From contig CAWJBB010000027.1 in the NCBI GenBank assembly GCA_963840855.1, positions 160,001 to 224,000 on the forward strand: a DNA stretch of 64,000 nt, read 5' to 3'. This stretch comes from an uncultured delta proteobacterium (lineage in GTDB: Bacteria > Desulfobacterota > Binatia > UBA9968). The notes below the pieces were generated by a model. The model was not told the origin of the DNA, searched no databases, and saw only the letters and a list, made by a program, of their open reading frames with translations. This document shows positions 561 through 44,021 of this stretch, in pieces. Position numbers and translations under genes: made by a program. Within the stretch, counting starts at the first letter, position 1; the number at the start of each line of letters is the position of its first letter.

Positions 561-656
561 TAAATTGCGTGCGCCAGGGTTTGAGAACTTGAAGGCGGCG
601 GGATAACGATAGGCCCTAGTATTAGATTGACGATGTGCCAGAAAAAATTTGACAGG

Positions 657-684
657 ATTCGTTAGAAGGAGAAATCAGTTCAAT
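657..684 (+). repeat. 28-bp dif-like site, class A (copy A1)
   Basis: ATTCGTTAGAA-GGAGAA-ATCAGTTCAAT. Confidence 0.7.
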
Positions 685-702
685 CCTGGCATCGCCGCGT
701 CG

Positions 703-864
703 CTATTTGATCACCTTATCCGCTCTCGCCAGCACATTTGGTGGAATCGTCAGACCGATCTGCTTCGCGGTCTTCAGATTGATGATGAACTCAAACTTCG
801 TCGGCTGCTCGACTGGCAGATCGGCGGGCTTGGTGCCCTTCAGAATCTTGTCGACATAAGTGGC
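703..864 (-). pseudogene. 3' fragment of ABC transporter substrate-binding protein gene
   Basis: Translates [53 protein letters not shown], homologous to the C-terminus of 26821..27804. Confidence 0.9.
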
Positions 865-882
865 AGTCCGCTGAAACGACGG

Positions 883-1417
883 GTTATACCCCTGCCACTA
901 CTTCTTCTCTGGCATCACGGAGGAGTGATGGCTGGTAATGAGCCACTTCGAACCATCCCAGCGATACGTATAGCTATAGCGGCCATTGACTACTGCGCCT
1001 GTCTTGGCGAACGTAAATGTGTAGAGGCCAGCATCAACGGCGGTGTTGCAGCCAATTTCTACGAAGCGCAGATCAATCTTTCCGGAGGGGCGATCCACTA
1101 GGAAATGATGAAAGTAATCTTCTTTTTCCGCCGGGGTCAAGCGTGGTTTGTTCGAAACGGTAGGCAACAGAATAGAGCGTTCCGCATAGTTGGCAACGAC
1201 CTTATGCGGATCGCCAGTCTGCAAGGACTGATTCCACCGGTCAAACAACGATGCGATCTCCTGTTCGGTGGTGACCTTGCAACTTTCCGTTCGTGTGGCC
1301 TGGGCCGCGTTGGAGGTAGATCCTGCAAGGACCGCGTAACCAGCAAGTGCAATCAAGGTGAGTGATTTCATTGAAACGCTCCTTTCAGCGTTCAACGGGA
1401 AACATAGGGGGTATAAC
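883..1417 (-). mobile_element. Integron gene cassette (attC truncated)
   Basis: Minus strand starts GTTATACCCC and ends GGGGTATAAC-CCGTCGTTTCAGCGGAC, i.e. complementary core and inverse-core sites around one ORF. Confidence 0.7.
898..1371 (-). CDS. Secreted NTF2-like protein (CaMKII association domain / SgcJ-EcaC / DUF4440-like)
   Basis: Signal peptide; LFDRWNQSLQTGDPHKVVANY...LLPTVSN...GLYTFTF...WLITSHHSSVMPE; SD GAAAGGAG. Confidence 0.85.
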   Translation of the reverse strand: MKSLTLIALAGYAVLAGSTSNAAQATRTESCKVTTEQEIASLFDRWNQSLQTGDPHKVVANYAERSILLPTVSNKPRLTPAEKEDYFHHFLVDRPSGKIDLRFVEIGCNTAVDAGLYTFTFAKTGAVVNGRYSYTYRWDGSKWLITSHHSSVMPEKK

Positions 1418-1589
1418 GATTACGTGACCCTCATTAGGCGGGTTCGAGTCCATCCGGGCGCTTCTTTGCTCAACGCGGCGAAATACCCTCTCTAAACCGT
1501 CCGCATCCAAGGTAGCAGAGAAAAGTGACATTTACGACAGAAGGCTAAAGGTATTCCGTCGAGTGGAAAAACCAGATTTTCAGCCTGAG

Positions 1590-1617
1590 ATTGAACTGAA
1601 CGACGCAACAGTCGCGT
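1590..1617 (-). repeat. 28-bp dif-like site, class B (copy B1, one arm degenerate)
   Basis: + strand ATTGAACTGAA-CGACGC-AACAGTCGCGT. Confidence 0.55.
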
Positions 1618-1627
1618 CTTGTAAAGG

Positions 1628-1655
1628 ATTAGGTCGTGGGAGAAATCAGTTCAAT
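1628..1655 (+). repeat. 28-bp dif-like site, class A (copy A2)
   Basis: ATTAGGTCGTG-GGAGAA-ATCAGTTCAAT. Confidence 0.7.
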
Positions 1656-1660
1656 TAGGA

Positions 1661-1723
1661 GCTTAACACTAGCCTTCACCGGTGCGCATCTTTTTGCGCG
1701 TCCGGTGGAAGACTCCGTTCGGC
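1661..1723 (-). other. attC site
   Basis: GCTTAAC...TTCACCGG-TGCGCA...TGCGCG-TCCGGTGGAA...GTTCGGC imperfect palindrome, 63 bp. Confidence 0.75.
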
Positions 1724-1725
1724 AG

Positions 1726-1990
1726 TCATATGGCCCACGCTCTTCGTTACGACCGGGGAACACCGGAAACTACGCAAGACCTGCTCGAACTCGAAAGCGG
1801 TGCATCCTTGTGAACGGGCAGATGCGGTCTCTCGCCAGGTGCCCGCTTCAAGTAGGTCTTCAGCACAGGTGCACGCCGGTCCGCAGGAACTTCTTCAAGG
1901 CGCACCTCCTCGCGACGTCCGTGACGTAGAGTCACATTGCCACTCACCGCCTTCAAAATTTTGCACCCAGTCCAACTTCGTTCCGAGCAT
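1726..1990 (-). pseudogene. 3' fragment of nitroreductase / deazaflavin-dependent oxidoreductase-like gene
   Basis: VTLRHGRREEVRLEEVPADRRAPVLKTYLKRAPG.RPHLPV.KDAPL; no valid start, frameshifted. Confidence 0.55.
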
Positions 1991-2296
1991 GGACGCAAGT
2001 TAAATGGTAACCTTCAACGAGAGCAATGACGGGTGGTAGACTGATGAAGCGCCTGCGTCGCCGGCCTTACGCGGGCAAGCTGATCATGGCCGCGCCGATG
2101 GTAGGTGGATGATGGATCGAATTCCCGTATCTGCTCGCCCTTGTTTCCTTTCTCATCGACCATGAACGACAAAATCTCTTAGCTCGCAGGTCGGCCTTCT
2201 GGACGACAAATACAATCAGCGCCCCATCGCCGGCCCCGCACCTCACTTCTGTTGGCTCCTATCAAAGCACCTAAAGTTCGAGAAAAACGGAAGAAG

Positions 2297-4168
2297 TCAA
2301 GATTCCTCGAATGATGTTCGTGAGTGTTCAATTAGAAACCCGACCTTTTCAACAAGGTCATCGACCAAATATGGTTTGTAAATGCAGTCCTTCACGCCGG
2401 CCTGGAAGAGTTCTGATTTCACTTGCGGCTCTAGATAACCGGTTGTGATGATAATCCTTATCACCGGGTTTTGCTCCTTCAGTTCATGAATCACGTCAAA
2501 GCCGGTAATTTTGGGCAAGCCGAGATCGAGCACCACGATATCAATCTCTTCTTTATGATGGTGATAAAGATCTATCGCTTCTTCGCCGTCCATAGCAGTC
2601 AGGGTTTGGTAGCCCGCTTTCGACAAGACCTCTCTCAAAAGGCGAACCAGCGCCTCTTCGTCTTCGACCACGAGAACGGTTCCTCGACCACTAGCGTATT
2701 TTCGACTGGCGCCTTCCCTTTTCACTATCTCATCAACCGACGATTTTCCTTCCGCCCGAAGCACCGGCAAATAGAGCCGAAACGTGGTGCCGCCTCCAGG
2801 CTTACTTTCCACTTCGATGAAACCCTTATGCTCTTTGACGATGCCGTAGACGATTGCGAGTCCCAGCCCCGTCCCTTCACCGATTCCTTTAGTAGTGAAG
2901 AACGGCTCAAAAATCCGCTCCCGGACTTCTTCTTTCATTCCCATCCCGGTATCGCTGATCACAATTGAGACATACGACTCCGTGCCGGCTTCGAGGCGGT
3001 GCTCCCGCGCTTTGTTTTCGTCGATCCTTTCCGTTCTGATTGTGAGTTTCCCGCCTGCCAGCATGGCGTCGCGCGCATTGACGCAAATATTGAGCAGCGC
3101 TTGGCTCAATTGATTTGAATCCGCCATTACCGACGGCAGCCCAGGGTCAAGATCCAATGCGACGTCAATAATTTTGGGAAACGATTGTTTGATCAGTTCG
3201 CTGATCGTCAAAACGAAGTCGTTGGCATCGATGGGAGCTAACTGCGCTTTCGTCCTGCGCGCCACGGTCAAAAGTTGCCGCACCATGGACGCGCCCCGTT
3301 TGACTTGTTGGTCGATGGTTTTCAAACTTTTGTCAATCTCCTGCTCGGTTAACAGTTCCTCGCCGATGAGGTTAGCGTAACCTTGGATAATATTGAGAAT
3401 ATTGTTGAACTCATGCGCGATGCCGCCGGCCAGCGTCCCGATGCTTTCCATTTTTTGCGCGTGGCGGAGCTGCTCTTCGAGTTTTTTTTGCTCCTCGATG
3501 GTTCTTAATAGAGCCGCGTTGGCTTGATTGAGATCGGCCGTGCGTTCCTGAACTCGCCTTTCAAGCTCTTCGTTGGCTTTGACTAACTCGTTTTTTGCTT
3601 GACGCACGAGTTCATCCGCCAGTTTGCGCTGCGTAATTTCCTGCTGCATCTTTTCGTACAGCCGGGCATTTTCAAGAGAGATCGCCGCCTGCGCCGCTAG
3701 CGCTTTCAGAATCTCTTCATCTGCTTTGCTGAAGGCGCCGGTCTCTTTGTTCAATACCTCGAACGTTCCGATGATCTCTCCGTTGTTTGTTCGCAGTGGG
3801 ACGGCGAGCAGGCTCTGCGTGCGGTACCCGGAAAGTAGATCAATCTCCTTATAGAACCGCGGATCTTGATAGACGTTCTCGACATTAATCGTCTGTCCGG
3901 TAAGTGCCACGGCTCCTGCAATACCTAAGCGAGCATCAAAACGAATCTCCTCACTGCCAAGCACAACCTTTGACCAAAGCTCCCCCCGTTCCCGATCGAG
4001 CAGAAAAAGGCTTGCCCGGTCCGCCCCCATTAGCTTAGTCGCTTCGTTGGCGATCAAGTCCAAGAGCGCCACGAGGTTCCTTTCCGAACTCATTCGCTGG
4101 CAGATTTTCAGAAGCTGTTCTGCGAGGTGGTTTTGGTCCTTGAACGAAGCTTGGTTGATTGGAGTCAT
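2297..4168 (-). CDS. Hybrid sensor histidine kinase (GAF-HisKA-HATPase-REC)
   Basis: GAF N-terminus; H-box [11 protein letters not shown]; N box NARDAM; G boxes DTGMG and GTGLGL; receiver VLVVEDE...DLGLP...KP. Confidence 0.95.
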
Positions 4169-4283
4169 CGCTTTCGCCTGAAACTAGCGCGATGCCATCA
4201 TCTTAGTTGCAGTATGTTGCAACAAGACTCCTTAAGCAAGGCCAGAATTCAGCGGAGTTTTAAGGGAGATAGAAAGTTAACCC

Positions 4284-4520
4284 TCAGCGGTCACCCAAAA
4301 CCGGCCAATGAAGGTCATCTGAAAACCGGCCAACGATAACGACGCCCGAGACATTGACTGCGACGAGACGCCTACTAGGCTTCGTCGCCATGAGCAATGT
4401 CTTGAGCGAAGAAAAAAAACAACAAGTTATAGCACTAGGGCGGCTGGGCTGGACGCTTCGGCGCATTGAGCAGGCCACCGGTGTGCGTCGAGAAACCGCA
4501 GGCGCTTATCTCAAAGCCGG
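4284..4520 (+). mobile_element. IS21-family remnant (left end plus 5' end of istA)
   Basis: Tandem GGTCA..AAAACCGGCCAA end repeats, then MSNVLSEEKKQQVIALGRLGWTLRRIEQATGVRRETAGAYLKAG, truncated. Confidence 0.75.
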
Positions 4521-4582
4521 TTTTGTGCCATTGACAACCGGGGGCCTCATAAGTGGTTAGGCGGCGACATCTTTAAAAGTTC

Positions 4583-4939
4583 TTAGCACGAGCCTGAAGC
4601 CTGCTTGAGGAGCGCCGCAAAGGCTCGCTCGTCAATTCTAGAAGCGTCACGGACTTTGGTGTGCCGCACGAACTTCCCCTCGCCTTCCAGTAAACCTCTC
4701 GGGTCCTTTAGGGATGATCCGTTAAAAAAACCAAACTGCACATATCCCGTTGCAGAGTAGACGTAAGCCACTGGCCCGTTATTCCCGATCCAACACCCGT
4801 TTCCCCATTTCACGGATTGCTTTAGCTTCGGCTCAACACGTTTCACAAAACGCCGAAGTGCGCCAATAATCGCCTGGTTTTTGGGATTCTGATCCTTCAA
4901 GTAATCGTTAAAGCTCGCATATGTCTTCATTTTTCCCAT
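4583..4939 (-). CDS. DUF1801 (YdhG-like) protein in gene cassette
   Basis: VKWGNGCW...VQFGFFNGSSLKDPRGLLEGEGKFVRHTKV; flanked by ATTAGGC (4969-4975) and GCCTAAC (4556-4562) on minus. Confidence 0.85.
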   Translation of the reverse strand: MGKMKTYASFNDYLKDQNPKNQAIIGALRRFVKRVEPKLKQSVKWGNGCWIGNNGPVAYVYSATGYVQFGFFNGSSLKDPRGLLEGEGKFVRHTKVRDASRIDERAFAALLKQASGSC

Positions 4940-4968
4940 AACAAGGTCCTCAAACTCTGGCACGGACC

Positions 4969-5060
4969 GCCTAATGACCCAAGCTCACCGACGCCGCCTC
5001 AAGACGGCTCGATTGTAACCAAAGCGCGATGGCGGCGTTCGGTGCAGCGCCTTGTTAGGT
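4969..5060 (-). other. attC site
   Basis: GCCTAAT...GCTCACCGACGCCGCC...GGCGGCGTTCGGTGCAGC...GTTAGGT. Confidence 0.85.
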
Positions 5061-5149
5061 GCACCTGGAACCGTCTCAAACTCGCTTTCACTCCAGTCTA
5101 TGACTCTAAATATGATGAACGCCATATCGCTGTATATGGAGTGACCGCT

Positions 5150-5404
5150 CTACAAAAAATTGGAAATCAATTGAAACAAAAAACTCAAAATCAACAAAAA
5201 CAATCCAATGCGTGATCGAAAATCAAATTTTTTAGCTAAGGCAACCTCATCATGATTTATCTGTTCTGTAATAAGATGCTCATGCCCCTCGCGATCAATC
5301 GAAGCCGGTAAACCAAATCTCCAAATCAAATACGAACCCAAAATGCCCAAGAACAGACCAAGACTATTAACGATGATTTTTATATGAGTGAAAATGTAAT
5401 CCAT
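5150..5404 (-). CDS. Small two-TM membrane protein, AT-rich cassette gene
   Basis: 84 aa with two hydrophobic helices; lies between attI-like site (5434) and attC (4969-5060). Confidence 0.7.
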   Translation of the reverse strand: MDYIFTHIKIIVNSLGLFLGILGSYLIWRFGLPASIDREGHEHLITEQINHDEVALAKKFDFRSRIGLFLLILSFLFQLISNFL

Positions 5405-5648
5405 AATGACAAGGAGTGGCGAGGGGCTGATGCACCTATTAAGTGAGCCGCATTAGGCGGCGGAAAATGCTGGTCGGCCTATCTCCTAACACGGGTCCAA
5501 CAATCAAATTCAAATCGGTTGCAAATATCCTCCACTTGCCTCGACCTGTCAACATTACTTGGATCGACAAACGCTGCGAACTACCGCGGCCTATCCCACT
5601 AACGATTCGCGGCCTATCTCCGTCCCAGAGCACTGCAAAAAGCCTGAG

Positions 5649-5677
5649 ATTGAATTGAACGACGCATCCGGACAAAT
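5649..5677 (-). repeat. dif-like site, class B (copy B2)
   Basis: + strand ATTGAATTGAA-CGACGC-ATCCGGACAAAT (one extra base). Confidence 0.65.
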
Positions 5678-5685
5678 CGTACAGG

Positions 5686-5713
5686 ATTGGTTCGATGGAG
5701 AAATCAGTTCAAT
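5686..5713 (+). repeat. 28-bp dif-like site, class A (copy A3)
   Basis: ATTGGTTCGAT-GGAGAA-ATCAGTTCAAT. Confidence 0.7.
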
Positions 5714-5731
5714 CCTGGCATCGCCGCTTGG

Positions 5732-5752: not shown

Positions 5753-5800
5753 AGCGCCCCCTCTTTCATACGCCGCCCGAGCCGGCCGAAGCAACATCGG

Positions 5801-5890
5801 GATTTTCATCAAACAGAAAGACGATTGACATCCTACCGGTCCGGCGATATTGCTCAGGCCAGAAAAAAAGGTGGTTTAAAATTCCTATAC
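5801..5890 (+). mobile_element. IS91/ISCR oriIS-like end with outward promoter, no transposase
   Basis: Ends GGTTTAAAATTCCTATAC; TTGACA-17-TATTGC; 88/90 identical to 31945-32034 (inverted). Confidence 0.65.
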
Positions 5891-6080
5891 ATACAGAAGT
5901 CTCGGTCTTGCAATGGACTTTTAGTAGCTCCTTCGTTGACGACTGAACGCGGACTCATCGAACAGCAGACAGCCCATGTCTAATGACCCTTTGTGATCGA
6001 TGCGTAAGTAACACCTATGAGAGGGTTGGATGCCTGACTAAGAAATATGGGAAGCTTGGTGAACTGCGAAGAGTCGGCAT

Positions 6081-7176: not shown

Positions 7177-7204
7177 ATCAAACCGATGGAGAAATCAGTT
7201 CAAT
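7177..7204 (+). repeat. 28-bp dif-like site, class A (copy A4)
   Basis: ATCAAACCGAT-GGAGAA-ATCAGTTCAAT. Confidence 0.7.
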
Positions 7205-9588: not shown

Positions 9589-9616
9589 ATTGTTTAGAAG
9601 GAGAATTCAGTTCAAT
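9589..9616 (+). repeat. 28-bp dif-like site, class A (copy A5)
   Basis: ATTGTTTAGAA-GGAGAA-TTCAGTTCAAT. Confidence 0.7.
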
Positions 9617-9647: not shown

Positions 9648-10332
9648 GTCGCGGTAGGGACCGCCCTTGCGAGCGGCCCCCCGCACAGATCCGTACGTGA
9701 GGAATTACCTCATACGGCTCTTACCTCGGGTTCATGTGACGGCCAGCCGCTCCTTGGATACGAATAAAGCATAAGGCTTGTCGTACGCGCCACAACCCCT
9801 GTGACTCGCATCCCCGGCTCTGGGTCCGGCACGAGTGCGCTTGTGGTGCGTTCCCCTTGGTCGACCTCCTTCCCTCTGCGGACTCCGCTGCCAACGCATA
9901 CGCGTCGGCTTTGTTCGCCCGCTTCGTTGGTACTATGAGGTCGTCCGACTCCACCGCAGACGTGCATGTCGACATTACGGCTTTTAGCCTTCTTCGACCG
10001 TCCCAAACTCCATCGAGGGTGGGCGTCTGCAGGGCCTCCCGGTTCTCGCGCATGGAGTTTCCCCACATGCCTAGGGTCTCTGACTCCGCGGTGTCGAAGG
10101 ACCGCTCGCGCCTAACGCTGCCCTTCATGTTGCCTTCCCCGTATCAAGACACGGTCGGCACACCGAAGTGGTGATTTCGGAGCTCCATACCTGGCCTGTG
10201 TGTACCCCTGTCAACGCTTCGCCCGCGTCCTTTCGGACCCAGACGCATGACTCGGAGCCAAAATGGTGCGCTACTCCTTTCTTGTGCGGCTCTCTCATCC
10301 GCTACTCCATGCCGGTTTATCCCGGCGCTTTC
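9648..10332 (-). mobile_element. Group II intron RNA with RT/maturase ORF deleted (685 nt)
   Basis: Domain V GAGCCGTATGAGGTAATTCCTCACGTACGGATC; domain VI ending CCCTACCGCGAC; 5' region GCGCCGGGATAAACCGGCATGG; EBS1 loop CTTGAT complementary to exon ATCAAG. Confidence 0.9.
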
Positions 10333-11595: not shown

Positions 11596-11835
11596 TCACT
11601 TTGGGGGCAATAAATGGTCAACGGCGATCCGGCTAATTTCCATCCCGTAAAACTCGGCCAACCCGCGCATGTCGTGGTCGAACCTGATACCAGTGTCTTG
11701 AAATCGTACGACTTCCACCACGGAGCCCAGGCGGCCGTCTTTGAGGATCTTTCCGAAGGGATGCCAATAGTGAGTATACGGCGGCCCAGGAACGGCGCTG
11801 CCGGTAATCCAATAGCCTTTGTAGCGTTCCATCAT
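11596..11835 (-). CDS. Small hypothetical protein coupled to SRAP (copy 1)
   Basis: Overlaps SRAP stop (ATGA); near-identical paralog at 17886..18122. Confidence 0.7.
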   Translation of the reverse strand: MMERYKGYWITGSAVPGPPYTHYWHPFGKILKDGRLGSVVEVVRFQDTGIRFDHDMRGLAEFYGMEISRIAVDHLLPPK

Positions 11836-12509
11836 AGCAGTTTGCCTTCAGCCGGGAGGATGCATTCCGGCAAATCGTTTCGGGGATTGTTCACGAACGG
11901 TGACACGTCGTAGCCTTCCATCTCACCGGGCGGATACGGTTTCAGCAGCGCGAGCGCGTGAGCGAGCTCGTTACCAACCGCAAGCCATTTTAGAGCGTCG
12001 TCGTTGCTCAACATGACGGGCATTCGATTGTGGATCGGGCGCAACATATCGTTGGGTGCCGTCGTGATAATCGTGTACGTGCAGAGAAGATTTCCATCCG
12101 GTTGTTTCCAGCTATCCCATAGGCCGGCGAACGTGAACGGTTCCCCGGACTTGAGTATGAAGCGCATAGGAACCTTGCCCTTTCCTTCCTTCCGCCATTC
12201 GTAAAAGCCATCGGCTAGAACGAGACAGCGGCGCGTTCCTAACAGGTTATTGAAAGCCGGTTTCTCGCCAAGCGTTTCGGCGCGGGCGTTGATCATCTTT
12301 TTACTGACGGCCGGATCTTGCGCCCATGAAGGAATCAACCCCCACCGAAAAAGTTCGATTTTTAGCTTTGCGTCTGCTTGAACGATTACTGGCGCTTCTT
12401 GACTCGGCGCGATGTTATATTGGGGCTTTAAACCGAAGATTTCCTCGACGTTCCAGGTAAGGCGAAGGTCGGAAAATTCGCCGGGCAAATAGGTATAACG
12501 ACCGCACAT
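11832..12509 (-). CDS. SOS response-associated peptidase (SRAP/YedK/HMCES family)
   Basis: MCGRY start, YNIAPSQ, RWGLIPSW, INARAET, RRCLVLADGFYEW, IHNRMPV. Confidence 0.95.
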   Translation of the reverse strand: MCGRYTYLPGEFSDLRLTWNVEEIFGLKPQYNIAPSQEAPVIVQADAKLKIELFRWGLIPSWAQDPAVSKKMINARAETLGEKPAFNNLLGTRRCLVLADGFYEWRKEGKGKVPMRFILKSGEPFTFAGLWDSWKQPDGNLLCTYTIITTAPNDMLRPIHNRMPVMLSNDDALKWLAVGNELAHALALLKPYPPGEMEGYDVSPFVNNPRNDLPECILPAEGKLL

Positions 12510-15427: not shown

Positions 15428-15523
15428 AAAAACCCCCGCATAAATGCGTCAGCGATGCATGGACGTTGGTCTGTTGTCGCCGTGAAGGGCCGGACCCCCC
15501 TTCGAGCCCGGCGCTCTCTGGTT

Positions 15524-15748
15524 CTACAGGTACTTTTCTATCAAGTGGATTTTGCCGCGGCGCTCAAGCTCATCAATGCAAGCCTTACCTTTTCCATATA
15601 CTTCTATGAGCCGTTCAAAGGTGAGTCGTGACGGGTTGTGTTGCAGCTCATCGCCATCCTTGATTGTCTTTTTAACCAAATCAACTAATTGATCGTCCGA
15701 GAGCCTTTCCATTAGATCGTCAAGTTTCGGGAGTTTTGCGTATCTCAT
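15524..15748 (-). CDS. Hypothetical protein
   Basis: 74-aa ORF with protein-like composition. Confidence 0.5.
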   Translation of the reverse strand: MRYAKLPKLDDLMERLSDDQLVDLVKKTIKDGDELQHNPSRLTFERLIEVYGKGKACIDELERRGKIHLIEKYL

Positions 15749-15838
15749 GAAATAGCCTACTACGCCCGCCGCTGGGTTGAGCGGTGCACTACTGTTAGAG
15801 GGTCCTTATTGCCATCTAGGGCGCCGGATGCTACGGCG

Positions 15839-16099
15839 CTACTCAGGCGGTGATTTGAGGGCACCTCGGGCGGCCGTTGCCGCTTTCAAACTGGCTTCAA
15901 ACTCCCACAACCGCGCGCTTAGGTCCTCTTGGACAAGTCGAGATTCAACCGAGGTAACTGCGCCCGACGTGATGTCATGGAAAAGCGCCAATTGAGCGGC
16001 TTGGAGATCCTGCACCGTTTTTATTTCCTTCCCTTTGAACGCGAGGATTTCGGCAGTGTCTTTCATTTCCGTTCCTTTTGGTGATTCAGTTTCAGCCAT
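15839..16099 (-). CDS. Hypothetical protein (phage-like)
   Basis: EIKTVQDLQAAQLALFHDITSGAVT helical ORF. Confidence 0.5.
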   Translation of the reverse strand: MAETESPKGTEMKDTAEILAFKGKEIKTVQDLQAAQLALFHDITSGAVTSVESRLVQEDLSARLWEFEASLKAATAARGALKSPPE

Positions 16100-16715
16100 A
16101 ACCGCGCCTTCTATCGCAGCGCCAGAAAAAAGCAAGGGTTCTCGGCACTGGTAAAGTTTCAGCCATCGGATGACAAAAGTTTTTAGCTATGCCATGGTCC
16201 TGCATGGCAAAAAAGAAAGCAAAGAAAAGAACACAGCAAGGCAATCAAGTATGGTTTATAAAGAAGGACGACTTTCAGAATGCTTTAGACATTCTTGAAC
16301 TGGCTATTGGGGAACCCTTTGTACCGCCTAAAGGGACGGCCAACGATCCGCTAAAGACGACGACACACCAGCGGAGAAAAAAGCGCAAGCGGCCCTTCAA
16401 CTAATCTCGCTGAGTTTCGGATTCATTTTCATCAATAGGAACATCGGGCTTAAAAACGGCTTCGCAGGAAGCCCCAGGACGCACGATCTCGCCTTGACCC
16501 TTGCCAGACCATTGACCGATTTTGGGCACCAGACCTAAGCCCGGCGCCGGCGAGGCTTGTATTGCGATGCACGAATCTTTCACGTTAGGCAACCAGAATT
16601 GAAACAAGTTGGTTACGACTATATCCAACTCGGCCCGAGAGCTTTGTCGGAGGACCGTCGAAAGAAAAGTTGACCTTTTGAGCCGTGAACGGCCGGACCC
16701 TCGTGAGCCCAAGCC

Positions 16716-16895
16716 TTACCCGTTCCAATACGTCCGCATCCAACCGATTGCCAAGACAAAGGTTATCACCATTGGCAACACGAGCCAGTCAAAGCCCTAC
16801 GGGGAGATGTAGTATCCCGCGATCCAAGCGGCCAAGCCTGCAACGATGAGGGACAAAGAACGCTTCAGCCATAGCGGTATATTTAGGCACGGCAT
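16716..16895 (-). pseudogene. Paralog of 13850..14038 with internal stop
   Basis: PLWLKRSLSLIV...ISP*GFDW...LAIGWMRTYWNG*. Confidence 0.6.
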
Positions 16896-16917
16896 TTCAT
16901 GCATAACGACTTCCCGG

Positions 16918-16949
16918 ATTAGTTTGATGGATGGAGAATTCAATTCAAT
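16918..16949 (+). repeat. dif-like site, class A (copy A6; 4-nt GGAT duplication)
   Basis: ATTAGTTTGAT-(GGAT)-GGAGAA-TTCAATTCAAT. Confidence 0.65.
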
Positions 16950-16954
16950 GGCCG

Positions 16955-17035
16955 GGCTAACGTTCGCGGTGACCCGTGCGAGCGAGCGCGCGAAGCGGCG
17001 CTTGCCAAGCGTCGGTGTCCACCGCAGGGTTAGGC
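16955..17035 (-). other. attC site
   Basis: GGCTAAC...CGCGGTGACCCG...CGGTGTCCACCGCAG...GTTAGGC. Confidence 0.85.
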
Positions 17036-17046
17036 TCGTCGCTGGG

Positions 17047-17604
17047 CTACGAGCGAGACACCTTGCCTTGGAGCCGTTCGTTCGCCTTCTCAAAAACTCG
17101 CATGGTATCCTCCACGTCGTATGGGCGCTCTTCAAACGATTCAGGATCCCATTCGCTGCGAGCCGTGGCAAAAAAATCTCCGCCGTAAACGTGGATCGCC
17201 GCGGTAATCTGATCCAGTGGGTTCGTAACAGCGTGAATAATCGCTGCGCCCAGCGGGGTCGTGTCTCTCGCGTGCAGCTCCTTACTCCCGTGTTGCTCCA
17301 AGCCGTGTTCGGCACGGCGGTAGAAGGTATTCTGCTCGCGACCTCCATAGATTCCGATGACGGCCCACATGCGATGATCGTGGGGTTTGAACTTCATCCA
17401 GGGTCCCCAGCACAAGTTTAGGATAGTCAAATCGTCTGCCCTGTAAATCGTTTCGACGCCGGCTCGCTGCGGCTCTCCAAGGACCCGCACTACGTGCGCG
17501 GGTTCGCTTACAGCTGTGGCTACCAGCTCCCGGATTGCAGCATGCGTTTCGCCTTCCTTGAGCGCAGCGCGGCAATCTTCAATGAAACGTTCTCGCTCAA
17601 ACAT
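17047..17604 (-). CDS. Cupin / cysteine-dioxygenase-like protein in gene cassette
   Basis: PHDHRMWAVIGIYGGREQN...IHAVTNP...AIHVYGGDFF; cassette core GTTAGGC (17628-17634) and inverse core GCCTAAC (17029-17035). Confidence 0.85.
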   Translation of the reverse strand: MFERERFIEDCRAALKEGETHAAIRELVATAVSEPAHVVRVLGEPQRAGVETIYRADDLTILNLCWGPWMKFKPHDHRMWAVIGIYGGREQNTFYRRAEHGLEQHGSKELHARDTTPLGAAIIHAVTNPLDQITAAIHVYGGDFFATARSEWDPESFEERPYDVEDTMRVFEKANERLQGKVSRS

Positions 17605-17810
17605 CTCTGTTCCTCCTTTGCTCAAGAGCCTAACTTTGAAGTGAGTCGGTCAATCTATCCCGCCAACTGTTTCATGATAATGGATGAGACTATAATCTTT
17701 TCCACTGCTTAATAATGAAAACTCTGACCCGACAAATACTGCACGATTGTTCAGCCTTTGCCAACTACAAGCGTCGGCGAAAAGGAGGAGGAGTCCAAAA
17801 TCCTGGCAGG

Positions 17811-17838
17811 ATTGAACCGTTCGACGCTTCTGGCAAAT
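17811..17838 (-). repeat. 28-bp dif-like site, class B (copy B3)
   Basis: + strand ATTGAACCGTT-CGACGC-TTCTGGCAAAT. Confidence 0.65.
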
Positions 17839-17885
17839 CGCGGCGTGCATAGGCTAGGAATTCAACCGACCCAACAAAAGGCAAC

Positions 17886-18122
17886 CTAACGAGGCGCTGG
17901 CAAGCAATGGTCAACGAACATCCGGCTAATTTCCATCCCATACCACTCGGCTAGTCCGGCCAGATCGAACCTGATACCAGTGTCTTGAAATCGTACGACT
18001 TCCACCACGGAGCCCAGGCGGCCGTCTTTGAGGATCTTTCCGAAGGGGTGCCAATAATGGGTATAAGGCGGCCCAGGAACGGCGCTGCCGGTAATACAAT
18101 AGCCTTTGTAGCGTTCCATCAT
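17886..18122 (-). CDS. Small hypothetical protein coupled to SRAP (copy 2)
   Basis: MMERYKGYCITGSAVPGPPYTHYWHPFGKILKDG, paralog of 11596..11835. Confidence 0.7.
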   Translation of the reverse strand: MMERYKGYCITGSAVPGPPYTHYWHPFGKILKDGRLGSVVEVVRFQDTGIRFDLAGLAEWYGMEISRMFVDHCLPAPR

Positions 18123-18128
18123 GGCGGT

Positions 18129-18445
18129 TTAACCTTCAATCGGCTTAATGCACTCTGGCGAATCGCTACGGGGATTATTGGCGAGCGGTGACACGTCGTA
18201 GCCTTCCATCTTTTCGGGCGGATACGGTTTCAATAACGTGAGAGCATGGGCGATTTCGTAGTCGAGGGCAAGCCATTTTAACGCGTCGTCGTTACTGAGC
18301 ATGACGGGCATACGATTGTGGATCGGGCGTAACACGTCGTTGGGTTCCGTCGTGACTATCGTATAGCTGCGCAATAGATTGCCATCCGGTTGCTTCCAGC
18401 TATCCCACAAACCGGCGAACGCGAACAGCTCCCCGGACTTGAGCT
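18129..18445 (-). pseudogene. SRAP 3' half (copy 2)
   Basis: LKSGELFAFAGLWDSW...IHNRMPV; N-terminal half missing. Confidence 0.9.
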
Positions 18446-18985
18446 TGAAACTAGGGCGATGATGCACCTTCAGCCAAAATGAGCATCTTCGCAACACGGA
18501 AGACGGCTGGGAGGACCTGCCATGAACGCTGCGCTGGAAATCCGAAAGACCCGGACGGTCGGATTCAAGCCCGCCGGATAGACGGCAGACCACTTACCGC
18601 TGAAGAGCGGGAGCAAGCCCGCCGAATGGCCGCCACCAGACCGGCACACCTAACCGCCCAGGAGATCATCGACATCGACGCCGGCAAGATCGTTGCTGTC
18701 TTGATCGACTCCGACCACTCCAGGCTGAATAGTTCGCCGATTCCTCGGCGGCGGTTCTTCGATCGGTGGTTCCTCGGTCGGTGGCTCCTTAACCGGAGGC
18801 TCCGGCTGGTCTTCGTCTGGTGATGGTTCGGGAGGTTTCTCCTCTGTCATATTCGTGAATCTATTCCTTCAACGTGCTCCTGCGCCTTCTTGAGGTAAAC
18901 TTCCGCCAGGATGGGATGCAGATCAAAGCCCGCGCCGAGAAGGCTGTTAAGTAGCGACTTCTCCTGCGGGAGGTAGATGCTGGTT

Positions 18986-19207
18986 TTAGTTCGGCTTGTT
19001 CCGCTGTTCACTTAGACCCTTGTAGGCCTCCCCAAAAGTCATCTTGTCCGCATCCGGCACGGCTGCCAACTCGGCCACAAAGCCAACAAACTCTTCCAGT
19101 GCAGCCTTCACCTCGGGCGCTGTCAGTACAATAGGAATCCCGATCCGAATTGGGATTTGACCGATGCTATCGTACCACAGAACCGGTGTTCCTTTTTCGA
19201 TTTCCAT
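18986..19207 (-). CDS. Hypothetical protein
   Basis: SD AAGGAGG; 73 aa. Confidence 0.55.
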   Translation of the reverse strand: MEIEKGTPVLWYDSIGQIPIRIGIPIVLTAPEVKAALEEFVGFVAELAAVPDADKMTFGEAYKGLSEQRNKPN

Positions 19208-20259
19208 GTTTTACCTCCTTCGCGCGTCACGGGCTCTGCATATCACCGGCCTTAACTTGGCGCAAGGCGGGAGTTGAACGGTTCCACTGTGATTCGCTTT
19301 TGAACCTTTTCAATCATCAATCTGATCGTCCGCTTGAGTTCCTTGTCAGTTGCTTCGAGCTTGCGTTTCGGGAATCGCTCGAACTTTTTTCGCTGAGATC
19401 CTTTGTTGTTCGCAGTCGTCTTAGTCGCAGTTTCTGAGTTTGACTTTCGGGCATACTGTTGTTTTTCCTTCGCCGTCATTCCCTTGATTGTTTTCCCTAA
19501 CTCGGTTGCCAGGCGGTCCAGTTTTTTGCCGGATCTACCTTTTTTTGATGTTGATCTCCATTCATGGGTTAAAGAATTGATTCGATTCACTCTGGCCAAC
19601 GTGGAAGGGCAGGCGGCGCGCGAGGCCTACAGGGCAAGGTGCATCGTCTCATCATCCGCACATTGTGAAGAAATGCTTACCGGCACGCCGTGGAATGTCC
19701 CAAGTCTGCCGCTCGATAGGTGTTGCGTAGGTGCATAGCTCATCACCGAAGGCGAAATTCTCCAGTAGCCATTCCTCCTGCGCATGGCACATGGCTTCGT
19801 AGCGGCTGTCCCATGCTTGGGCGTCTCTCAGGAGTTGGGCAAAGCGGCGGGTGGTTGTGGTCATGAGGCCACTTCCTGGCTTGCGGATGGGTGGCCTTTT
19901 GAGCGGGCAGGGTGGTATAAAACGCACGAAAGCGATGCTTCTCTTCACAGGGGGCTCCTTTCAGGCCGGATACGGTGTGACCAGCACCGCCCGGCCACTT
20001 TATTTTTAGACCGACTTCACTTTTTGCGCCGGCTCCTCCGCTGCGGCGCGCTCCTCGTCGCACTCGCCTTCATCGCATGGCCGACAAACAACGTGCCCAT
20101 AATAGGGCGTGGCCGATGGCCCTAGCGCGGCGTCACACCCGCAGAAGCAACCGCATGTGGAGAAATAATTAGCTGACATAAATCCTCCTCCTGTGAGAAA
20201 CCCCGATTCTTTGGCTCTTGCCCTGGCCACCGGCGGAGTGGGACAGATCGGCTCGAAGA

Positions 20260-31171: not shown

Positions 31172-31944
31172 CAACTGGATCCTCCTCCAGTTGGCCAAGG
31201 TAGCATCGTTCGTCGCTTAGCTCAGAAAACGAAGGGTACCACCTGAAATGGGGTGGGTCCCTTCCGTGAAATCAGGTGGGTCCCTTCGTTGAAATTGGGT
31301 GGGTACGTTCCGTGAAATCGGCCAATTGCAGCAGCCAAGACCGGAGGATAGTCGGTACCCAATACGAAAATGGATACGTACTAATAATATTTGAGAGTGA
31401 CGCGCCTCGTTTTTTCAAGGAAAAAGAGATTGCTCCAGGTTTGCTTGCGAAACTGAGGGCGATTGAGATTGAGCAATTTTACAGCGTACTTTGTATCCAT
31501 TCTTTTTTTCGTGACGATTGGCAGAAGCGTTACGATGCGGAACGGACGGTAACTGACAGATTACTGAATATAAGAAAGACGGGCAAGGAGCTTGTAGCGA
31601 TCCCGTAGAAAACGTCAATACTCGAACTCATCGACTCTTCGGCGCAATATACGCATTCTCTGTTGACGCCGTGTGCGTGCTATGTGAGCATGAGCCGGAG
31701 TTAAGGCTCCTCCAATCAACTTTCCGCTAGTTTCCAAGAAGCCGCGTTAACCGATCTGCCAGCCGGTATCCCGCCAGAATCATCCTTCGATCACCAATCC
31801 GGCTCGCGTTAACAACGTAGCCCACAGGAAGCACGGGAGCCGCTGCGAGCGCCGGAGTTAGGGAGGCCGTAAGGGAGCTATAGCAGGATTGCCGCCAGAA
31901 ATTGGAGGGCAAAGCCGATAAGTAAAAGAATAATCGAGTAGTCT

Positions 31945-38014: not shown

Positions 38015-38074
38015 GTTCAAGGTTCAACGTTCCAATCGCTCCCCACCTTGAACCTTGAACGTTGAACTTTGAAC
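38015..38074. repeat. Inverted array of heptamer repeats (GTTCAAn / nTTGAAC) between convergent genes
   Basis: gttcaaggttcaacgttcc...ttgaaccttgaacgttgaactttgaac; sister copy at 43960-44021. Confidence 0.75.
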
Positions 38075-43959: not shown

Positions 43960-44021
43960 GTTCAAAGTTCAATGTTCAACGTCCCCTCCCCATCTTGAAC
44001 CTTAAACCTTGAACTTTGAAC
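43960..44021. repeat. Inverted heptamer-repeat hairpin (copy 2)
   Basis: gttcaaagttcaatgttcaac...ttgaaccttaaaccttgaactttgaac. Confidence 0.75.

What the first reader, a model, noticed from the sequence alone, without database searches (positions are those of the whole stretch)
16918..17838. Integrase-less mini-integron packaged between two dif-like sites (cleanest example of a thrice-repeated architecture)
Seen, reading the minus strand: class B site, ~175-bp leader, core site GTTAGGC, cupin gene, complete attC, 5 nt, class A site, in 921 bp. The layout recurs at 657-1617 (B1, GTTATAC, NTF2-like gene, truncated attC, SBP fragment, A1). It recurs again at 1628-5677 (B2, core site, two cassettes, later insertions, attC, A2). 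The cassettes start and end with complementary core and inverse-core heptamers (exact in two, near-exact in two), the hallmark of real integron cassettes. No intI is present in the window. Inference: a two-tier mobile unit in which an IntI acting in trans loads cassettes and a Xer-like recombinase moves the whole platform. I know of no description of this combination.
Basis: partly seen in the sequence, partly recalled or inferred. Interest (0 to 1): 0.85.

Follow-up and report, generated by a model that had tools for sequence, protein, structure and literature searches.

The report
Mini-integron flanked by Xer-like sites
A one-gene integron fragment that lacks its integrase lies between two short recombinase-type sites; these sites recur in arrays in soil bacteria and have their own small Xer-like recombinase, which points to a second layer of gene-module mobility.

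Summary
The layout is real. Reading the minus strand of window 16916-17840: a class B site, 14 nt of an intI 3' end, an attI-type leader ending at G|TT, one cassette (a cysteine-dioxygenase-like cupin ORF), an attC, 5 nt, then a class A site.

The attC is accepted by a covariance model built only from attC sites outside the window (26.5 bits, E 4e-4).

A and B are not chromosomal dif. They are two classes of 32-bp 13-6-13 inverted-repeat sites with shared arms and different 6-bp centres (TTCTCC and GCGTCG). I collected 237 distinct A and 174 distinct B sites.

They bound co-oriented modules: 42 of 90 modules carry a PF04392 substrate-binding protein (SBP) gene, and 16 of 90 end in an attC abutting the A site.

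New here: a dedicated roughly 300-aa Xer-like recombinase gene sits in the A-to-B junction. A B site follows its stop codon in 49 of 53 metagenome loci. In this genome that gene is a pseudogene and both intI copies are damaged.

The same B-attI platform carries different cassettes in other genomes. Five literature searches found no description.

The parts
17809..17840 (-). Class B site, 32 bp: weak left arm 17828-17840, spacer GCGTCG 17822-17827, right arm 17809-17821
   Evidence: 3 mismatches to the 17-mer consensus. 13-6-13 consensus from 174 distinct B sites.
17855..17868 (-). Possible decayed A site just upstream of B (remnant of an A-B junction)
   Evidence: Read by eye. Inference only; not recovered by the pattern scan.
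17765..17778 (-). Remnant of the last codons and stop of an intI gene
   Evidence: Aligns with the 3' end of the IntI-like ORF of L108 and with the longer remnant in L109.
17634..17779 (-). attI-type leader (type 1), ending at the G of GTTAGGC. Crossover point G|TT lies between 17634 and 17633
   Evidence: 75-77% identical over 135-149 nt to L108, L109, L112 and L010. Homology ends at G|TT and the cargo differs. A second orphan copy lies at C5:8077-8195.
16961..17633 (-). One integron gene cassette (673 bp)
   Evidence: The start TTAGGC and R'' GCCTAAC are exact complements. A 602-nt contig from another soil metagenome covers 17008-17609 and ends there.
17047..17604 (-). ORF, 185 aa, cysteine-dioxygenase-like (cupin fold) by language-model features only
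   Evidence: No Pfam hit. Atlas score 0.99 to clusters named 'cysteine dioxygenase family'; 39% of the members of the third-ranked cluster (0.98) carry the Pfam family CDO_I. 79% nt identity to G029:C7.
16955..17035 (-). attC site, 81 nt, R'' GCCTAAC ... R' GTTAGCC, extra base in L''
   Evidence: Model R1: 26.5 bits, E 4e-4 in the window and 0.048 genome-wide. Fold shown.
16916..16951 (-). Class A site: strong left arm 16939-16951, spacer TTCTCC 16933-16938, weak right arm about 4 nt longer than usual
   Evidence: Consensus from 237 distinct A sites.
5647..5715 (-). A-4nt-B junction at the head of unit 2 (A 5684-5715, B 5647-5678)
5434..5646 (-). attI-like leader (type 2) with three ATAGGCCG repeats, ending CTCACTTAATAG|GT
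   Evidence: 70-80% identical regions follow B sites in at least 10 other loci. Likeness to true post-intI regions is at motif level only.
1658..5433 (-). Cargo of unit 2: an 84-aa ORF cassette (5150-5404), a DUF1801 cassette (4583-4963), later insertions including a hybrid histidine kinase (2297-4168), and a terminal attC-like end with R' GTTAAGC 3 nt before the A site's 13-nt left arm (5 nt before the ATTGAAC core)
   Evidence: These attC sites were not found by model R1.
1588..1657 (-). A-B junction between unit 2 and unit 1 (A 1626-1657, B 1588-1619)
687..1587 (-). Cargo of unit 1, a degraded SBP module: SBP-type leader to 1509, internal SBP fragment 1446-1507, NTF2-like insert from GTTATAC at about 1440 to GTATAAC at about 882 (ORF 898-1395), SBP 3' end 707-877
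655..686 (-). Class A site closing unit 1, followed by a decayed B
7188..7204 (-). Solitary A site after an SBP 3' remnant
9600..9616 (-). Solitary A site after an SBP 3' remnant, 30 nt downstream of a group II intron

Best explanation
The 921-bp unit is one module of a modular array system that sits on top of the integron system.

Modules are bounded upstream by a class B site and downstream by a class A site. Both are 32-bp 13-6-13 inverted-repeat core sites of the kind tyrosine recombinases use. They share arms and have different, asymmetric 6-bp centres, and each has one strong and one weak arm.

Their likely enzyme is a dedicated roughly 300-aa XerA/XerC/XerD-like recombinase. Where present, its gene lies in the A-to-B junction with the B site about 10 nt after its stop codon. 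In most junctions the gene is replaced by about 4 nt, giving the 67-69-nt A-B pair.

Here the cargo is an orphan attI (with 14 nt of intI 3' end) plus one attC cassette. An IntI acting in trans presumably inserted that cassette at G|TT.

Inferred, not shown: modules move or are swapped by A-with-A and B-with-B recombination. Because the two centres differ, A cannot recombine with B, so the arrangement behaves like recombinase-mediated cassette exchange or like Acinetobacter pdif modules.

In this genome the system looks fossil: the recombinase is a pseudogene, both intI genes are damaged, and this B site is degenerate.
For: Site anatomy:
- 237 A and 174 B sites were collected. The unselected weak arm matches the canonical arm at 6.8 and 6.1 of 13 positions, against 3.6 and 3.3 for shuffled arms.
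- Arm-to-arm spacing peaks at 10 nt (a single 32-bp site) and at 46-48 nt (the A-B pair).
- Arms do not covary. At position 9 the counts are C-G 42, T-G 16, T-A 5, C.A 9, A.A 1 of 73, as expected if independent, so they look like protein sites rather than a stem.

Recombinase:
- A B site lies 10-19 nt after the stop codon in 49 of 53 metagenome loci. An A site lies about 84 nt before the ATG in 32 of 54.
- The same arrangement is seen in G002, G003, G017, G070 and L011.
- Best family matches are XerA, XerC and XerD, all below their cut-offs. The closest solved structure is XerD 1a0p, with the catalytic motifs aligned.

Modules:
- Of 90 B-to-A units, 42 carry a full SBP gene, 16 have an attC R' abutting the A site, and 10 have attI-like leaders.
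- Left and right flank classes reassort around 82 junctions.

Platform:
- The same B, intI remnant and attI carry different cassettes and end at an A site in the window, in G012 (L109/L113) and in L010.
- 10 of 13 attC hits abut an A site.

Spread:
- 85-92% amino-acid identity between Binatia-family genomes and a MAG labelled Pyrinomonadaceae.
- Sites also occur on a 1.76-Mb contig of a Chloroflexia MAG.
Against: - No movement was seen: no contig joins across the unit, and no empty platform exists in the 8.17 Mb in hand.
- A and B mostly occur as one fixed-length junction, which also fits a miniature transposable element.
- 22 of 54 recombinase loci lack the A site and have a different upstream sequence.
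- SBP arrays also exist without any A or B site, on C6, C32 and C68.
- Recombinase copies above 70% identity were found in only 5 of 89 other family genomes, so most arrays lack an enzyme in cis.
- Type 2 leaders resemble true attI sites only at motif level.
- The genome is a MAG with 8% contamination, and cross-phylum claims rest partly on short binned contigs.
Confidence: 0.5

Rival explanations
1. The mobile thing is the junction, not the module. A-recombinase-B would be a small tyrosine-recombinase transposon with 13-bp terminal inverted repeats, and the 67-69-nt A-B pair its non-autonomous miniature (MITE-like) derivative. Both would insert preferentially 3-5 nt after attC R' boxes and after SBP gene ends. 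On this reading, 'B...A units' are simply the DNA between two insertions.
For: - The gene lies inside the inverted arms.
- 28 pairs of 64-69 nt occur in this genome, with conserved loop types.
- A-rec-B sits inside a true integron array headed by an intact intI in G002:C23.
- The fixed distance to attC R' resembles the attC targeting known for IS1111-attC elements and group IIC-attC introns (recalled from memory).
Against: - Interiors of the mini and gene-bearing forms share nothing between TTCTCC and GCGTCG.
- Many A sites and B sites are solitary: 84 A arms and 63 B arms against 28 pairs.
- Each arm region is itself a full 13-6-13 site.
- The flanks would imply targets such as attC joined directly to an SBP leader, which is not a natural sequence.
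- The B-attI2 composite is conserved as a unit in at least 10 loci.
Confidence: 0.25
2. The A-B pair is an atypical attC: a single-stranded hairpin recombined by IntI. The arrays would then be ordinary clusters of attC sites lacking an integrase (CALIN).
For: - The 13-bp outer stem contains AAC...GTT.
- Arrays are co-oriented with a period of about 1.19 kb.
- IntI genes exist in the genome and its relatives.
Against: - There is no compensatory change between the arms.
- The inner stem is not conserved.
- Model R1 gives no hit on any A-B pair, even at E<=10.
- Homology breakpoints and solitary A or B sites fall inside the element, not at a 3' G|TT.
- A Xer-like gene, not intI, is linked to the sites.
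Confidence: 0.07
3. The sites are used by the host's own XerC/XerD, as with pdif modules or IMEX elements, and no dedicated enzyme is involved.
For: - Host Xer paralogues occur in 86 of 90 family genomes.
- Most arrays lack the special recombinase.
Against: - The geometry is 13-6-13 rather than the 11-6-11 of dif (recalled from memory).
- The dedicated gene is tightly linked to the B site in 49 of 53 loci.
- Sites are absent from 272 of 272 sampled genomes of 18 other families in the same class, which also have Xer.
Confidence: 0.05
4. A-B plus the leader is a conserved intergenic terminator and promoter block of one SBP gene subfamily. It would be spread by tandem duplication and homologous recombination, and the integron pieces landed there by chance IntI insertions.
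For: - 42 of 90 modules carry SBP genes with a conserved leader.
- The genome has 114 PF04392 matches.
- IntI can insert cassettes outside att sites (abstract of 10.1101/2022.09.11.507474), which fits unit 1.
Against: - The same sites flank unrelated cargo and a recombinase gene.
- The sites occur in distant phyla.
- No promoter or terminator beyond chance was predicted in this unit.
- The fixed attC-to-A spacing is not explained.
Confidence: 0.08

Closest known systems
Acinetobacter pdif modules: Xer-site-flanked gene modules on plasmids (PMC6449649, PMC7399989; search listing and abstracts only)
   Same: Gene modules are bounded by short Xer-type sites, many sites occur per replicon, modules appear in different contexts, and movement is inferred from comparisons.
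   Different: Here the sites are 13-6-13 and fall into two classes with different centres. A dedicated recombinase gene sits in the junction. The arrays are chromosomal and co-oriented in soil bacteria, and the cargo includes attI plus attC cassettes.
Integrons, In0 and CALIN: clusters of attC sites lacking an integrase (IntegronFinder paper PMC4889954; listing and abstract only)
   Same: The unit holds an attI-type site, a G|TT junction, a cassette with matching core and inverse core, and a model-supported attC, with no intI nearby.
   Different: The fragment is boxed by two non-integron recombination sites, and the same box type mostly carries non-cassette SBP genes.
Cre/loxP and cassette exchange with heterospecific lox sites (recalled from memory)
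   Same: 13-bp inverted arms surround a short asymmetric centre. Two site classes that should not recombine with each other flank a cargo.
   Different: The centre is 6 bp rather than 8 bp. This is a natural multi-copy array, the enzyme is Xer-like, and activity is untested.
Single-recombinase Xer systems with the site next to the gene, such as XerS/difSL, XerH/difH and archaeal XerA (recalled from memory; XerA, XerD and XerH structures matched)
   Same: One small Xer-family enzyme has its cognate site adjacent to its gene.
   Different: Those systems resolve chromosome dimers at one site per replicon. Here there are dozens of sites bounding accessory genes.
MITE-flanked integrons ('integron mobilisation units'), and attC-targeting IS1111-attC elements and group IIC-attC introns (recalled from memory)
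   Same: Small repeats bracket integron parts, and mobile elements home to attC ends.
   Different: Those use DDE or DEDD transposases or retrohoming. Here the repeats are tyrosine-recombinase core sites.

Membership tests
Integron (complete) | intI gene adjacent to attI | tested here: not met
   No TIGR02249 match lies on contig C27. Only 14 nt of an intI 3' end remain.
Integron (complete) | attI site ending in a G|TT crossover | tested here: met
   The leader is homologous to the sequence that follows an IntI C-terminus in L108. Homology stops at G|TT in all 4 aligned genomes. Function was not tested.
Integron cassette / CALIN | attC with paired R''/R' and L''/L' boxes and an extrahelical base | tested here: met
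   Model R1, trained outside the window, scores 26.5 bits at E 4e-4. IntegronFinder's own model was not available.
Integron cassette / CALIN | At least two attC sites in a cluster | tested here: inconclusive
   Only one attC in the window passes R1. The attC-like ends of unit 2 are visible by eye but score below threshold with this narrow model.
Xer/dif-type modules (pdif-like) | Modules bounded by recombinase core sites made of inverted arms and a 6-bp centre | tested here: met
   13-6-13 consensus for both classes, with the weak arm significantly like the canonical arm and a spacing peak at 10 nt.
Xer/dif-type modules (pdif-like) | Sites are bound and recombined by host XerC/XerD | not testable with these tools
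   Needs biochemistry. The linked enzyme here is a separate Xer-like family.
Xer/dif-type modules (pdif-like) | The same module is found in different contexts | tested here: met
   The B-attI platform carries different cargo in the window, G012 and L010. Flank classes reassort.
MITE / small transposon | Terminal inverted repeats with an autonomous partner encoding the enzyme | tested here: met
   13-bp arms flank either about 40 nt or the recombinase gene.
MITE / small transposon | Filled versus empty target sites (insertion polymorphism) | tested here: not met
   None was found in relatives, in laid contigs or in the 8.17 Mb in hand. The search was not exhaustive.
attC-type hairpin site | Stem pairing maintained by compensatory changes | tested here: not met
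   Arm variants combine as if independent. R1 gives no hit on A-B pairs.

The most novel reading that the evidence does not exclude
The Xer-like recombinase, its adjacent B site and the attI-like leader would form a second kind of cassette platform. On this reading, an enzyme lacking the IntI-specific domain heads arrays of attC cassettes, as in G002:C23, where the order rec, B, attI2-like, then at least 5 model-supported attC sites is seen. The same enzyme would also shuttle whole attI-plus-cassette blocks and SBP genes between genomes and phyla as double-stranded modules. That would be a nested, two-tier gene-capture system not yet described.
Probability: 0.2. Interest if true: 0.9.

Novelty: new variant of a known kind. 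Interest (0 to 1): 0.75.

Why it matters
Integrons are the textbook gene-capture device, and how their platforms and arrays move between chromosomes is an open question.

This work points to a widespread soil system: 370 recombinase proteins at E<=1e-30, with sites in Binatia and in MAGs labelled Acidobacteriota, Verrucomicrobiota and Chloroflexota. The system boxes attI-plus-cassette blocks and nutrient-uptake genes between two incompatible recombination sites.

If it is active, it would explain integrase-less cassette clusters and orphan attI sites. It would also provide a natural counterpart of engineered cassette exchange and a compact new recombinase and site pair for genome engineering. 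All of this can be tested with one expressed protein and two 32-bp sites.

Tried and rejected
- Rfam at gathering thresholds found only a group II intron in the window and nothing at the sites.
- A crude AAC...GTT hairpin finder was dominated by background, about 1 candidate per 10 kb. I replaced it with covariance model R1.
- The C35 recombinase next to an A site turned out to belong to an IS91-like element, so it is not the site's enzyme.
- Public reads: 20 of the 24 listed runs (12 studies) held small parts of window 15500-19500. Contigs from the 4 runs I laid gave only fragments and loose ends near 16919-16962, with no joint skipping the unit or closing a circle. This is no evidence either way.
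- The search for an empty platform (attI end abutting an A site) found none in 8.17 Mb. The shortest B-to-A unit is 455 nt.
- The promoter and terminator scan of the unit gave 1 promoter-like and 1 terminator-like match, against 0.8 and 1.0 in shuffles.
- A resemblance between the strong arm and the XerD arm of dif rests on memory only, so I dropped it.
- Literature searches found no description. I saw only listings and abstracts and read no paper in full. Supplements are closed and were not needed.
Full report
**Setting**

The window is G000:C27:160001-224000 of a 7.1-Mb, 93-contig MAG, 94% complete with 8% contamination. A same-genus genome (G002) carries a protein that NCBI labels Candidatus Binatia, on a contig of the same length as G002:C23. 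All features discussed lie on the minus strand.

**1.

Reading 17840 down to 16916, the order is:
- a class B site (17809-17840);
- a leader (17634-17808);
- GTTAGGC (17628-17634);
- a 185-aa ORF (17047-17604);
- an 81-nt attC (16955-17035), whose R'' GCCTAAC is the exact complement of the cassette start;
- 5 nt;
- a class A site (16916-16951).

To test the attC without circularity, I built a covariance model (R1) from 10 attC sites outside the window. Eight came from other contigs of this genome and two from other genomes. On that alignment, 81.6% of cells pair, against 31-40% when the partner columns are slid. R1 finds 16955-17035 at 26.5 bits, E 4e-4, the only hit below E 1 in the window. 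Genome-wide it is one of 19 hits, with E 0.048.

No intI lies on this contig.

The layout recurs at 655-1619 and 1626-5678, with two corrections. In unit 1 the 'truncated attC' is only the heptamer GTATAAC, and the unit is a degraded SBP (substrate-binding protein) module with an NTF2-like insert. The attC-like ends of unit 2 are not found by my narrow model.

The 'cupin' ORF has no Pfam hit. A protein-language-model search places it at 0.99 with clusters named 'cysteine dioxygenase family'; 39% of the members of the third-ranked cluster (0.98) carry the Pfam family CDO_I. This is a lead only.

**2. What the A and B sites are**

They are abundant. A 19-mer of A has 62 matches at up to 3 mismatches in this genome. 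Counted as 17- and 18-mers, there are 84 A arms and 63 B arms, a few of them chance matches.

In 28 places, A is followed by B at a fixed distance, giving a 64-69-nt pair. The rest are solitary.

The outer arms of A and B are 13-bp inverted repeats of each other, but their variants do not compensate. Among 73 distinct pairs, position 9 shows C-G 42, T-G 16, T-A 5, C.A 9 and A.A 1, which is what independence predicts. This argues against a selected hairpin.

Each site is instead a complete 32-bp unit:
- A = strong arm GGATTGAACTGAA, centre TTCTCC, weak arm;
- B = weak arm, centre GCGTCG, strong arm TTCAGTTCAATCC.

Over 237 distinct A and 174 distinct B sites, the weak arms (not used to select the sites) match the canonical arm at 6.8 and 6.1 of 13 positions. 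Shuffled arms give 3.6 and 3.3, and the wrong arm gives 1.4 and 1.9. Arm-to-arm spacing peaks at 10 nt (one 32-bp site) and at 46-48 nt (the pair).

The sites are 13-6-13 and multi-copy, however, so they are not a chromosomal dif.

**3. A dedicated recombinase**

The Tyr recombinase beside an A site on C35 proved to be part of an IS91-like element. That element is inserted at one fixed position of B sites in four genomes.

A different gene is the real partner. In a MAG labelled Pyrinomonadaceae (L011), a 275-aa ORF (about 300 aa in database entries) starts about 84 nt after an A site.

Copies above 70% identity occur in G002 (two), G003 (one intact and one split), G017, G070 (one in-frame TGA) and G047 (partial). 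That is 5 of 89 other family genomes. This genome has a stop-riddled pseudogene at C93:37648-38634. In these loci an A site precedes the gene, and a B site follows the stop codon within about 10 nt.

In 80 metagenome loci, the B site lies 10-19 nt after the stop in 49 of 53 loci with enough flank. The A site lies 74-88 nt before the ATG in 32 of 54. The other 22 form a subfamily with a different upstream sequence, itself preceded by an attC-R'-like motif.

The protein scores best against XerA (180 bits, cut-off 220), XerC and XerD, all below their cut-offs, and only 67 bits against the integron-integrase model. Its closest solved relative is E. coli XerD (1a0p, E 9e-34), with the Arg, His-x-x-Arg and Tyr motifs aligned. 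The large protein database holds 370 relatives at E<=1e-30. All named ones are auto-annotated as XerC/XerD or as a generic phage-integrase/tyrosine recombinase.

**4. Modules**

B-to-A intervals are co-oriented with their genes. Of the 90 shorter than 7 kb (own genome plus fetched loci):
- 42 hold a full PF04392 SBP gene, with sizes clustering at 1.10-1.14 kb;
- 9 hold SBP fragments;
- 16 end with an attC R' heptamer 3-5 nt before the A site;
- 10 have an attI-like leader.

Around 82 A-B or A-rec-B junctions, the left flank classes (SBP 3' end, attC R', other) and right flank classes (SBP leader, attI-like, other) occur in all combinations. The genome also has SBP arrays with no A or B sites.

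**5. The leader is an attI-type site**

Window 17628-17779 matches eight relatives at 74-77% identity. One of them, G009, is unpublished.

Aligned with L108, L109 and L112, homology begins at the intI stop codon. It ends exactly at G|TT, where the four genomes read GTTAGGC, GTTGGGC, GTTATGT and GTTAGCT, with unrelated sequence beyond. In L108 it directly follows an ORF ending in the IntI C-terminal box.

In G012 (L109/L113) the whole architecture repeats: B site, about 40 nt, the last roughly 36 nt of intI, attI, cassette 1 with an attC whose R'' complements its start, cassette 2, then an A site. L010 shows the same with yet another cassette.

The leader of unit 2 (5434-5646) belongs to a second type. 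It is found 70-80% identical right after B sites in at least 10 loci. It resembles genuine post-intI regions (C21, G070:C6) only in motif order.

In the fetched loci, 10 of 13 R1 hits end 3-8 nt before an A site.

**6. Relation to true integrons**

In G002:C23, an intact intI (478 bits) is followed by cassettes, then A-rec-B, one cassette, A-rec-B again, an attI2-like leader, and at least five model-supported attC sites. G003:C8 is a mosaic of modules separated by A-rec-B or by the short A-B pair.

In this genome, the intI on C1 loses its 3' end to an inserted three-recombinase element, and the intI on C21 is an N-terminally truncated copy with its own attI and cassettes.

**7. Distribution**

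Exact A 19-mers occur in 10 of 301 sampled genomes of the class: 8 of 25 in the own family, 1 of 3 in a sister family, and 0 of 272 in 18 other families. This genome has the most, 35 copies, and the reversed control gave 0.

By my arithmetic about 17 would be expected by chance. Hits are mostly Candidatus Binatia and 'delta proteobacterium' soil MAGs. They also include MAGs labelled Pyrinomonadaceae, Blastocatellia, Verrucomicrobiia and Udaeobacter, and a 1.76-Mb contig of a Chloroflexia MAG. The short binned contigs weaken the cross-phylum claim, but the long contig does not.

**8. Mechanism**

Shown:
- the site anatomy;
- linkage of the sites to a Xer-like gene;
- the modular architecture;
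- an attI-type platform with varying cassettes;
- a fixed attC-to-A spacing.

Inferred:
- the enzyme recombines A with A and B with B, but not A with B, because the centres differ;
- modules can therefore be excised, inserted or swapped between arrays;
- an IntI acting in trans loaded the cassette at G|TT.

I put this at 0.5. The main rival, at 0.25, is that the junction itself is a small transposon or MITE that homes to attC ends. The remaining rivals (atypical attC hairpin, host XerC/XerD, SBP intergenic block) are minor.

No direct sign of movement was obtained.

**9. Novelty**

Five full-text searches found no description. I saw only listings and abstracts.

The nearest known systems are Acinetobacter pdif modules and integrase-less cassette clusters. 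This system differs in having its own recombinase, two heterospecific 13-6-13 site classes, chromosomal co-oriented arrays, and attI-plus-cassette cargo.

Noticed in passing
window 9648-10295 (-): An apparently ORF-less group II intron (RF02005 at 177.8 bits; RF00029 at 41.6 bits) ends 30 nt upstream of a solitary A site, inside an SBP 3' remnant.
   Followed up: partly
G000:C35:33676-34658 (-); also L013, L035, L071, L083: An IS91-like element (a 285-aa tyrosine recombinase, plus an HUH/zinc-finger transposase seen in L013) is inserted at the same position inside B sites, between GCGTCGTT and CAGTTCAATCC, in four genomes. It appears to target the B site.
   Followed up: partly
G000:C1:42288-46880: The best intI of the genome (442 bits) loses its 3' end right after the catalytic-Tyr box. 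The insertion carries three consecutive tyrosine recombinase genes and looks like a recombinase-in-trio element.
   Followed up: no
window 2311-3640: 1.33 kb, the 3' two-thirds of a hybrid histidine-kinase ORF, is 97-98.6% identical to copies on C26, C46 and C75. This is a recent multi-copy segment of unknown nature.
   Followed up: no
window 5771-5894: A roughly 120-nt repeat has about 20 copies at 76-99% identity on C1, C2, C35, C40, C50, C52, C65, C85 and C90, next to an SBP 3' fragment.
   Followed up: no
window 11606-12161 and 17899-18449; also C50, C67, C85: SRAP (SOS-response-associated peptidase) gene 3' parts and their downstream region are repeated at 74-87% identity. One copy lies immediately upstream of the B site of the finding.
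   Followed up: no
L171, L177, L179 and 19 more metagenome loci: A subfamily of the recombinase lacks the A site. Instead it has a conserved upstream block with a small palindrome, preceded by an attC-R'-like GTTGCC. This may be a third site class.
   Followed up: partly
window 31244-31319 and 38039-38074 / 43986-44021: Three tandem 23-nt repeats, and two copies of a run of GTTCAA-like hexamers. Similar hexamer palindromes recur on C1, C21 and C26.
   Followed up: no
G000:C5:8077-8195 (-): A second orphan attI-type leader (75% identity to the window copy) follows a Rieske-type oxygenase gene, with no B site and no intI nearby.
   Followed up: partly
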